A DNA stretch of 64,000 nt from Escherichia coli (GTDB taxonomy: Bacteria; Pseudomonadota; Gammaproteobacteria; Enterobacterales; Enterobacteriaceae), in NCBI RefSeq assembly GCF_044324875.1, contig NZ_CP172185.1; one strand, 5' to 3'. Every line of letters starts with the position of its first letter. Position 1 is the stretch's first letter. Below are positions 58,301-61,300 of this stretch, in pieces. Made by a program: the position numbers.

Positions 58301-61300
58301 TCCGGCGCGTATGAGTATTTTGCCCGGAGCGCAAGCGGTCTTGTCCGTGATGCGCGCGCCATCAGCCCGTCACCGGCCACAGTCACCGTCTCCATCCTGT
58401 CAGCAGACGGTGACGGCACCGCCGGTGAGGCGTTACTGAACACGGTGCGGACCGCCCTGAATGCCGAGAACGTGCGCCCGGTTGCCGACCGCCTGACTGT
58501 GCAGAGTGCTACCATCGTGAACTGGGAAATGGAAGCGAAGCTGTATTTTTATCCAGGGCCGGAGTCTGAACCCATGCTTGCGGCCGCTGACGCCGCTTTC
58601 CGTGCATGGCTGGCAGACCAGGGCCGTATCGGTCAGGACGTGGCCCTGTCAGCCATCACTGCAGCGCTGCATGTTCACGGTGTCCAGCGCGTTGAGGTCA
58701 TAAAACCCACGCAGAACATCACCATCAGTGACACTCAGGCAGCCAGATGTACCACATTCAGCATCAGCGAAGGAGGACGCAATGAGTGACAGGAAAAAAA
58801 CAGACAGCGCACAGCACAGTACATCACTGCTTCCACCGTCCGCAGGGCCATTCATGCGCGCCACAGAGGCGACAGGAGTACGCATCAGTGCCATACCGGT
58901 GGACGCCGACACCCTGTGGTCGCCGGACCGCTGCCCTGCTCACCTCCTGCCCTACCTTGCATGGGCATGTTCCGTTGACAGCTGGGACCGCAACTGGCCG
59001 GAAGAGACCAGGCGACAGGTGATTCGGGACGCATGGATGATACATCGCCACAAAGGGACCATCAGTGCACTCCGCCGCATCGTTGAACCACTGGGCTACC
59101 TCATCCGTGTATCAGAATGGTGGGAGTTTGACGGCTCGCCCGGGACCTTCACCATTGAGATTGGCACACTTGAAACCGGAGTAAGTGAAGAGGTGCATGA
59201 AGAAATGGAGCGTCTGATTGCCGATGCGCGCCCCGTCAGCCGCCACCTCGTGGGGCTTAGTATCATCCAGGAAATACACGGTGCCATTTACGCCGCTGCC
59301 GCAGGTTACGACGGCGACATCATCACCATTTACCCGGAAGACTGAACCATGAGCACGAGAAAATTCAGAACCCTTATCACCGACATCGGGCTGGCAAAGC
59401 TGGCCGCAACAACGGCGCCTGGCGGTAGACCTGTACGCCTTACGCACATGGCTGTAGGGGACGGCAATGGAGAGCTTCGTCAGCCGCAGAAAAACCAGAC
59501 ATCGCTTTACAATGAGGTTTGGCGCCAGTCTGTCAACCGCGTCTTCACCGACCCGGAGAACCCGAACCGCCTCATCGCCGAACTGGTCATTCCTCCTGAA
59601 ACCGGCGGATTCTGGGTGCGTGAAATTGGTGTGTTTGATGATACAGGTACAATGATTGCAGTAGGAAATACCGCTGAAAGTTACAAGCCCACCAGAGAGG
59701 AAGGTTCAGGGCGGGCGCAGATATTCCGTGCAGTAATCACCGTCACCTCCGACGCCGTGGTGGAACTGGTCATGGACACAACAACAATTCTGCCGACCAC
59801 GGACTACATTGATGAGAAAATAGCGGAACACGCACGTTCCCGTAACCACCCTGACGCGACACTGACAGAAAAAGGATTCACCCAACTGAGCAGCGATACA
59901 AACAGCAATTCCGAAACGCTGGCGGCCACACCAAGAGCCGTCAAGGCTGCATATGACCTTGCAGCCCGTAAAGCACCCGCCAGCCACACCCACCCGTGGA
60001 ATCAGATAACTGGTGTGCCATCAGCCTCGCTGACGGCAAAAGGCATCGTACAGCTGAGCAGCGATACAAACAGCAATTCCGAAACGCTGGCGGCCACACC
60101 AAGAGCCGTCAAGGCTGCATATGACCTTGCAGCCGGTAAAGCACCCGCCAGCCACACCCACCCGTGGAATCAGATAACAGGTGTGCCATCAGCCTCGCTG
60201 ACGGCAAAAGGCACCGTACAGCTGAGCAGCGCCACAAACAGTGAGTCAGAGACTGAGGCCGCCACCCCCAAAGCGGTTAAAGCCTTACACGATATGCTGA
60301 CGAGCAAGTATACAGGACAGGATGCAACCACCGGACGCAAAGGCATCGTACAGCTGAGCAGCGCCACAAACAGCAATTCCGAAACGCTGGCGGCCACACC
60401 AAGAGCCGTCAAGGCTGCATATGACCTTGCAGCCAGTAAAGCCTCTGCCAGCCACACCCATCCGTGGAATCAGATAACAGGTGTTCCATCAGCCTCGCTG
60501 ACGGCAAAAGGCATCGTACAGCTGAGCAGCGCCACAAACAGCAATTCCGAAACGCTGGCGGCCACACCAAGAGCTGTTAAAGCTGCGTATGACCTTGCCA
60601 ACAGCAAAGCCGCGGCAGCCCACACTCATCGCTGGGCTCAGATCACAGACGCCCCTGTTTTTTCGTCTGTTGCCCGCGTCATCATGGGTAAACAAAGCAT
60701 AAAAGATATTCTTGATTACCTTGGTTTAGGAGAAGGCTCGACGCTGCCAGTTGGCGTACCCGTTCCGTGGCCTTCGTCAAGACCACCTGAAGGGTGGTTA
60801 CAGTGCAATGGTGCCGCATTCACGCGTACAAAATACCCAAAACTGGCAGTGGCCTACCCTGACCTAAGGCTACCAGATTTGCGCGGGGAATTTATTCGTG
60901 GATGGGATGACCTGCGAATGATTGACAGGGGACGCTTATTGTTATCCACACAGGAAGCAACATATATTTGTACCGCCATACAGGCGTACCACGGCGTAGC
61001 GGGAGGTGCAGATATTCAGGCAGGGATTTCATTTGCATCACATGATAACGACATCATAAACATAACCCCTGATCAACCCAGAACCGGTAACGGCATCCTG
61101 TACGGCAGAAAACCAGTTGACAGATGGGCAATAGCCAGAGCCGGTAAGCTGGTGAGTAATGAAAAAGACAGATGGATAGCGATCAGACCGCGCAATATCG
61201 CTTTTAATTATATTGTGAGGGCAGTTTAATGAGTAACACTGCAGTTCTGGATGAAAACGGTATCGCCACTTTCGCAGGCGATATCACTGTATATCACTAT

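What the first reader, a model, noticed from the sequence alone, without database searches (positions are those of the whole stretch)
59886..60650. Five tandem 56-aa collar repeats in the tail fibre
Repeat number in tail fibre shafts can vary by slipped recombination and alter fibre length. The receptor-binding C-terminal region (about 60650-61229) diverges from the repeats and, together with chaperone G, probably determines host range.
Basis: seen in the sequence. Interest (0 to 1): 0.25.

Follow-up and report, generated by a model that had tools for sequence, protein, structure and literature searches.

The report
Recombining shaft repeats in P2-type tail fibre
The repeats are real but ordinary: five copies of the known "phage tail fibre repeat" form the shaft of a P2-family prophage tail fibre in E. 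coli, and near-identical prophages carry 5 to 8 reshuffled copies.

Summary
The ORF at 59349-61229 (+, 626 aa) is a P2 gpH-type tail fibre. It has five tandem units at nt 59871-60674.

- **Unit sizes.** Four units are 56 aa and one (unit 3) is 44 aa with a different linker.
- **Family.** The units are Pfam PF03406 (Phage_fiber_2), not "collar" repeats. The one Collar domain (PF07484) lies in the C-terminal tip.
- **HxH motifs.** Each 56-aa unit carries an HTH (His-x-His) motif. In solved fibres this motif binds iron on the trimer axis.
- **Copy number.** It is not invariant. 115 E. coli protein clusters have both flanks at least 98% identical to the window. They show 14 other architectures of 5-8 units, built from 56-, 44- and 130-aa units.
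- **Origin of this allele.** Against an 812-aa allele whose flanks are virtually identical, the window has a clean 558-nt in-frame deletion. The crossover falls inside a 54-nt identical stretch (60347-60400).
- **Tip and chaperone.** The tip resembles the T4 gp37/gp12 collar. It has a variable distal segment and is followed by a Caudo_TAP chaperone.

The exact protein is already in public E. coli records. The "collar" label is wrong, and any effect on fibre length or host range is untested. This is known biology of low interest.

The parts
59349..61229 (+). Tail fibre gene (P2 gpH type), 626 aa, intact
   Evidence: ORF. Pfam PF12571 + 5x PF03406 + PF07484. PHROG tail fibre families. 63% identical to P2 H over aa 1-352. 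The exact protein is in public E. coli records.
59358..59801 (+). N-terminal baseplate-anchor domain (aa 4-151)
   Evidence: PF12571, E=5e-50. 63-64% identical to the P2/P88 N-domains.
59871..60038 (+). Repeat unit 1, long type (56 aa) with HTH at 59985-59993. Mosaic: first 15 nt as in unit 1 of relatives, the rest identical to unit 5 of the 812-aa allele.
60039..60206 (+). Repeat unit 2, long type (56 aa) with HTH at 60153-60161
   Evidence: (0 mismatches to L001 unit 2)
60207..60338 (+). Repeat unit 3, short type (44 aa), P2-like linker SKYTGQDATTGR, no HxH
   Evidence: the P2 and P88 units are all of this 44-aa type
60339..60506 (+). Repeat unit 4, long type (56 aa) with HTH at 60453-60461. 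Recombinant: head from the 130-aa unit 4 and body from unit 6 of the 812-aa allele.
60347..60400 (+). 54-nt interval that contains the crossover responsible for the 558-nt in-frame deletion relative to the LLSKLLT allele
   Evidence: The window matches L001 unit 4 through unit nt 8 (ATC codon). It matches L001 unit 6 from there on. L001 unit 4 diverges from unit nt 63.
60507..60674 (+). Repeat unit 5 (terminal). Full core, linker diverged (AAAHTHRWAQITDAPVFSSVA), HTH at 60621-60629.
   Evidence: (PF03406 best stretch aa 383-424; PF12789 aa 418-434)
60675..61226 (+). C-terminal tip (aa 443-626). It has a conserved collar half (aa 463-542, containing the PF07484 Collar match at aa 469-516, nt 60753-60896), a variable distal segment (aa 543-610, nt 60975-61178), and a conserved last strand RPRNIAFNYIVRAV (nt 61179-61226).
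61229..61840 (+). Tail fibre assembly chaperone (gpG/Tfa type), start overlapping the H stop
   Evidence: PF02413 Caudo_TAP E=1.4e-27. phrog_105, tail fiber assembly.

Best explanation
The feature is the shaft of a P2 gpH-type tail fibre encoded by a P2-family (Peduoviridae-like) prophage of E. coli.

Shown:
- The protein has an N-terminal baseplate-anchor domain, then five tandem Phage_fiber_2 (PF03406) modules in the order long-long-short-long-terminal, then a tip.
- The tip has a gp37/gp12-like collar, a variable distal segment and a conserved C-terminal strand.
- The next gene encodes a Caudo_TAP chaperone.
- The long modules are 91-95% identical at the DNA level.
- All unit lengths (168, 132 and, in relatives, 390 nt) are multiples of three.
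- Near-identical prophages carry 5-8 units in at least 15 arrangements.
- The window's allele differs from a 7-unit allele by a 558-nt deletion whose junction lies in 54 nt of perfect identity.

Inferred:
- Homologous recombination between units (unequal crossing-over, gene conversion or replication slippage, within one prophage or between co-resident prophages) adds, removes and reshuffles modules without breaking the frame.
- In the trimer each module adds a bead of shaft.
- The HTH of each long unit contributes, three chains together, six histidines to an axial Fe(II)-type site that registers or stiffens the fibre.
- Unit number therefore sets fibre reach.
- Receptor specificity resides in the variable distal part of the tip, folded with the help of the chaperone.
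For: - **Domain calls:** (PF12571, 5x PF03406 at E=5e-93, PF07484, PF02413; PHROGs).
- **Repeat anatomy and identities:**
- **Gene order:** V-W-J-I-H-G, typical of the P2 baseplate/fibre module. The same order is annotated in E. coli relatives.
- **Relatives:** identical flanks with different arrays. Recombinant unit 4 and mosaic unit 1. 14 other architectures among 115 clusters with flanks at least 98% identical. Seven of these, plus the window's own, are on Mb-scale contigs.
- **Independence of this allele:** the exact protein occurs on 9 contigs, including one of 5.75 Mb.
- **Modules cross fibre types:** phage 503046 has a different N-anchor (36% identical) but the same long-short-long-long-terminal layout with HxH. 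P2 and P88 have 4 and 3 units, with 44-aa spacing only. One unit aligns to Mu fibre protein S, 5yvq/8ju3.
- **HxH as an octahedral Fe site in trimeric fibres:** T4 gp37, the R1/R2 pyocin shaft, P2 gpV (PMC6116203; PMC11705849).
- **Tip:** 2xgf E=2e-12 by sequence. Foldseek finds 2xgf and 1ocy on top. Conservation profile: 0.61 identity in the collar half, 0.21 in aa 543-610, 0.72 in the last 16 aa. A tip swap occurs on the same N-terminus.
- **Repeats not needed for receptor binding:** an R2-pyocin/P2 chimera containing only P2 residues 291-669 is active on the P2 host (PMC6116203 section 2.1).
Against: - No experiment or trimer model here shows that unit number changes fibre length or adsorption.
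- The monomer AlphaFold model of the tip was poor (pLDDT 54), and no structure of the repeat region was obtained.
- Metal binding by the HTH motifs is inferred from the motif alone.
- Many of the 115 clusters come from short-read draft assemblies, where 168-nt repeats at about 95% identity can be mis-assembled. This may inflate the number of architectures. The core result rests on complete genomes and Mb-scale contigs.
- The direction of the event (deletion from a 7-unit allele, or acquisition in the other lineage) is a parsimony argument.
Confidence: 0.8

Rival explanations
1. Same anatomy, but the copy-number and order polymorphism is a neutral by-product of recombination between near-identical DNA units. 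The shaft tolerates any number of modules, and unit number has no effect on host range or fitness.
For: Many architectures coexist with one and the same tip, so no particular length is required for this tip. The repeats are dispensable in pyocin-P2 chimeras (PMC6116203). P2, P88 and phage 503046 work with 3-5 units.
Against: Every allele seen keeps the reading frame and keeps the first and terminal units, so at least purifying selection acts on an intact fibre. Some alleles gain or lose a 130-aa unit with an extra domain, which is unlikely to be functionally silent. Neither point demonstrates adaptive value.
Confidence: 0.4
2. The repeats are themselves receptor-binding (adhesin) modules, so copy number changes avidity rather than length.
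For: Tandem repeats in phage tail proteins are sometimes carbohydrate-binding. One example is the BACON repeats of crAss-like phages (PMC6949934, seen in the listing; title and abstract only).
Against: The same core motif is conserved in fibres of phages with different tips and hosts (P2, P88, Mu S, phage 503046), which is not expected of a specificity determinant. It lies between the anchor and the tip. A chimera lacking the P2 repeats keeps P2 specificity.
Confidence: 0.05
3. The five-unit array in the window is an assembly artefact (collapsed or mis-joined repeats).
For: The units are 91-95% identical over 168 nt. Many database entries for this protein are partial, which shows that short-read assemblies break here.
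Against: The identical 626-aa protein is found on 9 contigs under at least 4 NCBI accessions, one contig being 5.75 Mb. The junction in unit 4 is a clean in-frame hybrid. Different architectures occur in finished genomes.
Confidence: 0.02
4. Host-range variation at this locus is programmed (an invertase-driven tip switch as in Mu, P1 or P88) and the repeats are recombination sites for it.
For: The relatives P88 and phage 503046 carry an inverted alternative tip plus a DNA invertase directly downstream of the chaperone.
Against: In the window the chaperone gene is followed at once by the convergent gpU and tape-measure genes. There is no inverted tip ORF and no invertase. There is no gix/cix-like site within 3 mismatches anywhere in the window. 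The only inverted repeat in the gene is a weak 27-nt pair at 70% complementarity.
Confidence: 0.02

Closest known systems
Bacteriophage P2 tail fibre protein gpH with its assembly chaperone gpG (Peduoviridae)
   Same: The N-terminal PF12571 anchor is 63% identical over aa 1-352. PF03406 repeats start at the same position (aa 174/175). Gene order is J-I-H-G, and the chaperone is a Caudo_TAP.
   Different: The P2 record examined has 4 units and P88 has 3, all with 44-aa spacing and without HxH. The window has 5 units, four of them 56 aa with HTH. The tip is unrelated to P2's (21% identical) and belongs to the gp37/gp12-collar type. The tail operon (U, T) converges on G instead of following in the same direction.
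Pfam PF03406 Phage_fiber_2 ('phage tail fibre repeat'), as found in Mu S, P1 S, lambda Stf and the EPclB proteins of EHEC prophages
   Same: All five units match the family model end to end, 304.9 bits in total. One unit aligns to Mu protein S residues 96-166, PDB 5yvq/8ju3. The family is listed as the 'Pf2' domain in EHEC prophage fibres (PMC3368898).
   Different: The Pfam model covers only the 42-aa core. The 24-aa HTH-bearing linker of the long units lies outside it. It is touched only by PF12789 'Phage tail repeat like', at 28 bits against a cutoff of 27.
T4 long tail fibre tip gp37 (PDB 2xgf) and short tail fibre gp12 (1ocy)
   Same: The collar domain is similar by sequence (aa 463-521, E=2e-12), and the closing motif NIAFNYIVR is shared. 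These are the top Foldseek hits.
   Different: The window's tip has no HxH-lined needle. All four HxH motifs lie in the shaft repeats. The distal segment is only about 68 aa. The chaperone is a Caudo_TAP type rather than gp38/gp57A (the T4 chaperones are from general knowledge).
Tail fibre of Escherichia phage 503046 (CP025887)
   Same: It has the same set of long (HxH) and short units in the order long-short-long-long-terminal. The tip family is the same at 51% identity, and the chaperone is very similar.
   Different: It has a different, short N-terminal anchor (36% identical) on a different baseplate module. It also has an invertase with an alternative inverted tip, which the window lacks.
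Motif shuffling and duplication in tail fibre genes (Haggard-Ljungquist et al. 1992; Sandmeier 1994; Tetart et al. 1996 on T4 gp37 duplications). Cited from memory; these papers are not held in the library.
   Same: Short conserved motifs shared among unrelated fibres act as recombination points. Duplications of small fibre segments occur and can alter host range.
   Different: Here the evidence is population-level (15 architectures on identical flanks) rather than experimental, and no host-range effect has been shown.

Membership tests
Pfam PF03406 Phage_fiber_2 repeat | Match to the family HMM above the gathering threshold, in tandem copies | tested here: met
   5 stretches, E=5.2e-93, 304.9 bits against a cutoff of 22. 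The best stretch, aa 383-424, covers model positions 1-42 of 42.
P2 gpH-type tail fibre (Peduoviridae) | N-terminal 'tail-collar fibre protein' anchor domain (PF12571) homologous to P2 H | tested here: met
   PF12571 E=5e-50, aa 4-151. tblastn to Peduovirus P2 H gives 63% over aa 1-352.
P2 gpH-type tail fibre (Peduoviridae) | Genomic position after baseplate genes V, W, J and I and before a tail fibre assembly gene, inside a P2-type prophage | tested here: met
   Phage_base_V/Phage_spike, Baseplate_J, Tail_P2_I and Caudo_TAP, plus GPA, GPO, P2 capsid, portal, terminases and integrase. W is taken from its position in the window and from the GPW/gp25 annotation in relatives; it was not scanned here.
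P2 gpH-type tail fibre (Peduoviridae) | Homotrimer attached to the baseplate through gpI/gpJ | not testable with these tools
   Only monomer structure prediction is available.
   Collar matches once only, at aa 469-516 in the tip (E=2.6e-13). None of the five units matches it.
T4 gp37/gp12-type receptor-binding tip | Collar domain sequence or fold similarity | tested here: met
   2xgf E=2e-12 and short tail fibre 9cuy E=1e-10. Foldseek 2xgf E=3e-6 and 1ocy E=4e-3, on a low-confidence model with a well-predicted collar.
T4 gp37/gp12-type receptor-binding tip | HxH-lined metal-binding needle within the tip | tested here: not met
   There is no H-x-H in aa 443-626. The four motifs are at aa 213, 269, 369 and 425, in the shaft.
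HxH axial metal (Fe) site of trimeric fibres | His-x-His motif present once per chain at a position conserved among units | tested here: met
   HTH is present in all four 56-aa-frame units and in the long units of relatives and of phage 503046.
HxH axial metal (Fe) site of trimeric fibres | Octahedral coordination of a metal ion by six histidines of the trimer | not testable with these tools
   This needs a trimer structure or metal analysis. Precedents are in PMC6116203.
Caudo_TAP tail fibre assembly chaperone (gpG/Tfa) | PF02413 match in the gene immediately downstream of the fibre gene | tested here: met
   E=1.4e-27, aa 79-199. phrog_105 E=1.6e-87.
Invertible tail-fibre host-range switch (Gin/Cin/Min type) | Serine invertase gene, an inverted alternative tip and chaperone, and crossover sites | tested here: not met
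   None downstream of G, where gpU follows. No gix-like site within 3 mismatches. All are present in the relatives P88 and 503046.
Pyocin knob domain (the insert of the 130-aa unit in relatives; absent from the window) | Sequence or fold similarity to the Knob1/Knob2 domains of the R-pyocin fibre | tested here: inconclusive
   NCBI names a fragment consisting of this insert 'pyocin knob domain-containing protein'. Pfam, NCBIfam and PDB sequence searches give nothing for the insert. The single-sequence AlphaFold model is unusable, pLDDT 36.

The most novel reading that the evidence does not exclude
The array behaves as a recombination-driven hypervariable cassette. Rearrangements of long, short and knob-bearing modules outpace point substitution by a wide margin: flanks differ by 0-1 nt per kb while at least 15 architectures exist. 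Their role would be to tune fibre reach and auxiliary binding (presence or loss of the knob-like unit) to the O-antigen or capsule depth of the next host. That would make the array a contingency locus for prophage host range, and the window's allele a 'short, knob-less' state.
Probability: 0.15. Interest if true: 0.45.

Novelty: already known. Interest (0 to 1): 0.15.

Why it matters
It matters little as a discovery. The repeat family, the fibre type, the tip type and the chaperone are all catalogued, and the exact protein is already in public E. coli records.

There are three practical points:
- The comparison gives an unusually clean natural example of in-frame module loss by homologous recombination in a tail fibre shaft, with the crossover mapped to 54 nt.
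- The catalogue of 5-8-unit alleles on identical flanks is a ready-made natural series. It could be used to test whether shaft length or an auxiliary knob domain affects adsorption, which is relevant to engineering P2- or tailocin-type fibres.

The repeats are also a warning for annotation and assembly. Many database entries are partial, and some are misnamed 'short-chain fatty acid transporter'.

Tried and rejected
- **Misleading megablast summary.** Megablast of the whole gene reported that no place covers at least 80% of the query, and seemed to show that the N-terminal 534 nt were missing in E. coli. This was an artefact of how repeated pieces are joined. Direct translation of the annotated genes showed identical N-termini.
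- **Tip structure.** Monomer AlphaFold prediction of the tip with a 15-sequence alignment was confident only in the collar (mean pLDDT 54). The Foldseek result is used only as weak corroboration.
- **Knob-like insert.** Single-sequence AlphaFold of the 104-aa insert of relatives gave pLDDT 36, unusable. Pfam, NCBIfam and PDB sequence searches of that insert gave no hit. A homologue search returned only fragments identical to the query over the parts they cover.
- **Literature.** Searches for PF03406 and for descriptions of this polymorphism found nothing specific. The 2021 repeat-modelling paper only notes that no good template existed. The Mu in situ structure paper resolves only the fibre N-terminus. 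The RBPseg atlas had nothing on this repeat. The 1992 P2 tail-fibre paper is not held.
- **Programmed inversion.** No crossover site, invertase or inverted tip was found, so this was rejected.
- **Promoter and terminator scan.** Counts around the gene were at background level.
- **Antisense ORFs.** The antisense ORFs inside the array (for example 60170-60457, minus strand) repeat with the same period. I treat them as mechanical by-products of the repeat.
- **Repeat-region structure.** No structure prediction of the repeat region was attempted. Only monomer prediction is offered, and the fibre is a trimer.
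Full report
**1. What is in the sequence**

The finding lies inside one intact ORF, 59349-61229 on the + strand, 626 aa. 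Tandem Repeats Finder reports two overlapping arrays. One has period 168 nt, 2.1 copies and 97% matches. The other has period 300 nt, 1.8 copies and 91% matches. The 300-nt period shows that the array is not a simple 56-codon ladder.

Splitting the protein at the recurring KGxxQLSS start gives five units:
- aa 175-230 (56 aa)
- aa 231-286 (56 aa)
- aa 287-330 (44 aa)
- aa 331-386 (56 aa)
- aa 387-442 (56-aa frame, second half diverged)

This corresponds to nt 59871-60674. Units 1, 2 and 4 are 91-95% identical in nucleotides. Unit 3 shares only the roughly 33-aa core (61-72% nt identity). It has a 12-aa linker, SKYTGQDATTGR, in place of the 24-aa linker xKAPASHTHPWNQITGVPSASLTA.

So the count of five and the coordinates are right, the uniform 56-aa period is not, and the repeat is far beyond chance.

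**2. What the units are**

Pfam assigns the protein as follows:
- PF12571 (N-terminal domain of 'tail-collar fibre' proteins), aa 4-151
- five matches to PF03406 Phage_fiber_2, 'phage tail fibre repeat' (E=5e-93)
- one Collar domain PF07484, aa 469-516
- a borderline PF12789 match over the last HTH linker

The repeats are therefore not collar repeats. The word 'collar' belongs to the two flanking domains. PHROGs agree on a tail fibre.

The surrounding genes are:
- the virion morphogenesis (S-like) gene, then gpV spike, then gpW (56323-57889; W is assigned from its position and from the GPW/gp25 annotation in relatives, and was not scanned here)
- Baseplate_J at 57893-58789
- Tail_P2_I at 58728-59345
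- the fibre gene
- a Caudo_TAP assembly chaperone at 61229-61840

Further upstream are integrase, GPA, portal, terminases, GPO scaffold and the P2-type capsid. This is a P2-family prophage.

The exact 626-aa protein is on record for E. coli on 9 contigs, one of 5.75 Mb, under the name 'tail fiber protein'. Among isolated phages the nearest fibres are those of Peduoviridae (P88, P2 and others), at 61-65% identity over roughly the N-terminal two-thirds of the protein.

**3.

E. coli complete genomes carry the same gene neighbourhood. In three of them the 522 nt before the array differ from the window at 1 position, and the 555 nt after it at 0 positions. The arrays nevertheless differ. In this notation L is a 56-aa unit, S a 44-aa unit, K a 130-aa unit made of the repeat core plus an insert of about 86 aa, and T the terminal unit.
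- Two genomes have 7 units, L-L-S-K-L-L-T (812 aa).
- One genome has 6 units, L-S-L-S-L-T (670 aa).
- The window has L-L-S-L-T.

Among the 120 best protein clusters from the 5.8-billion-protein collection, 115 have both flanks at least 98% identical to the window. They fall into 14 architectures of 5 to 8 units, and none is the window's own. Protein lengths are exactly the sums expected from 56-, 44- and 130-aa blocks.

Short-read assemblies can mis-join such repeats, so I separately listed clusters seen on Mb-scale contigs. Seven of these architectures remain, eight with the window's own. Copy number is plainly not invariant.

**4. A recombination junction in the window**

Unit-by-unit comparison with the 812-aa allele (L001) gives the following:
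- Window units 2 and 3 have 0 mismatches to L001 units 2 and 3.
- Window unit 4 has 1 mismatch to L001 unit 6.
- Window unit 5 has 1 mismatch to L001 unit 7.

The base-level view shows that the window follows L001 unit 4, including its upstream S linker and its ATC codon, through unit nt 8. It follows L001 unit 6 from there on. L001 unit 4 itself departs only from unit nt 63. The exchange therefore lies in 54 nt of perfect identity, window 60347-60400. It removes 558 nt (186 codons: the K unit plus one L unit), and 812 - 186 = 626.

Unit 1 is also mosaic, with the first 15 nt of a 'unit 1' type and the remainder identical to L001 unit 5.

These are the signatures of homologous recombination or gene conversion between units. 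The direction (deletion) is a parsimony inference. The insert-bearing unit cannot arise from the window's array, so insert-bearing alleles are either ancestral or independent.

**5. How the repeats most likely work**

The same core motif occurs in fibres with different anchors and tips:
- The P2 record examined has four units and P88 three, all with 44-aa spacing.
- Phage 503046 has a different short N-anchor (36% identical) but an L-S-L-L-T array.
- One unit aligns to Mu fibre protein S, PDB 5yvq/8ju3.

An R2-pyocin/P2 chimera that contains only P2 residues 291-669, and so none of the P2 repeats, keeps activity on the P2 host (PMC6116203). The repeats are thus best read as generic shaft modules between anchor and tip, not as the specificity determinant.

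Each long unit carries HTH (aa 213, 269, 369, 425). In T4 gp37, the R1/R2 pyocin shaft and P2 gpV, the HxH motifs of three chains form an octahedral Fe site on the fibre axis. That site is proposed to register the chains or tune stiffness (PMC6116203; PMC11705849). By analogy the window's fibre would hold four such sites. This is inference from motif and context only.

**6. The tip and chaperone**

The last 184 aa match the collar of the T4 gp37 tip (2xgf, E=2e-12), including the closing NIAFNYIVR, and a short tail fibre (9cuy).

A monomer AlphaFold model was confident only in the collar. Even so, its best Foldseek hits were 2xgf and the gp12 receptor-binding domain 1ocy.

The tip family is large, with 7,995 representative clusters at E<=1e-3. 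In an alignment of 15 members, mean identity to the window is 0.61 in aa 463-542, 0.21 in aa 543-610 and 0.72 in the last 16 aa. This is the pattern expected if the chain runs out to a variable distal receptor-binding part and returns.

An E. coli fibre with a 99%-identical N-terminus carries a tip only 50% identical. It is conserved in the collar half and divergent distally. Twenty-six of 5,426 complete E. coli genomes have a place covering at least 80% of the tip-plus-chaperone query, 25 of them at 99% identity or more. About 600 have only a roughly 89%-identical chaperone, annotated next to a tail protein or tail fibre gene whose tip does not match the window's.

Unlike gp37, the tip itself has no HxH needle.

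**7. Rivals**

- Programmed inversion is excluded. P88 and phage 503046 have an invertase and an inverted alternative tip. The window has neither, and it has no gix-like site.
- An assembly artefact is very unlikely.
- A receptor-binding role for the repeats is unlikely (section 5).
- The serious alternative concerns significance, not identity. The polymorphism may be neutral, because many lengths coexist with one tip.

**8. Verdict**

This is a real but ordinary feature. It is the Phage_fiber_2 shaft of a P2 gpH-type fibre, already in databases, of a family known for decades to share and shuffle motifs (classical literature cited from memory; not held).

What this analysis adds is the precise anatomy (four HTH-bearing 56-aa units plus one 44-aa unit), the mapped crossover, and the catalogue of architectures on identical flanks.

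Noticed in passing
window 11409-32036 (-), with 32145-33500 (-): A single 6,875-aa ORF at about 60% GC. It has a BapA_N prefix, many Big_13/Big_6/Big_9 Ig-like repeats, FG-GAP repeats and a BNR motif. On the + strand it is followed by a TolC-like OEP gene. This looks like a giant BapA/SiiE-type repeat adhesin; an associated type I secretion system is my inference.
   Followed up: partly
window 61911-62399 (-) and 62411->64000 (-): The gpU gene and a proline/valine-rich, internally repetitive ORF run convergently into the end of the chaperone gene. The second ORF is tape-measure-like (no Pfam hit; its counterpart in relatives is annotated as tape measure). The tail operon is therefore inverted relative to P2's H-G-FI-FII-E-T-U-D order (P2 order from general knowledge). 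E. coli relatives have the same layout.
   Followed up: partly
L001 5746-9675, L002 6161-10090, L003 5573-9502 (E. coli relatives): RefSeq marks the tape-measure gene of these prophages as a pseudogene ('missing C-terminus'). It leaves about 1.7 kb unannotated between gpU and that gene. In the window the corresponding ORF is open for at least 529 codons.
   Followed up: no
L001 aa 331-460 of the fibre (locus nt about 3616-4005); absent from the window: A 130-aa unit made of the repeat core plus an insert of about 86 aa. The insert has no Pfam, NCBIfam or PDB sequence match. NCBI names a fragment of it 'pyocin knob domain-containing protein'. The window's allele lacks this unit through the mapped deletion.
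   Followed up: partly
database records for the window protein and its relatives: Several NCBI/UniRef entries name this tail fibre 'short-chain fatty acid transporter', an evident misannotation. Many entries are partial because assemblies break in the repeats.
   Followed up: no
   Followed up: no
window 33838-36065 (-) and 36345-37388 (-): The prophage integrase lies directly beside a glutaminase gene and an amino-acid permease gene. This marks the likely left end and integration region of the prophage.
   Followed up: no
L006 5522-6639 (phage 503046) and L004 6846-8888 (P88): Both relatives carry an inverted alternative tip (P88 also an inverted second chaperone) and a serine invertase downstream of the fibre module. 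The window's prophage has lost or never had this switch.
   Followed up: partly
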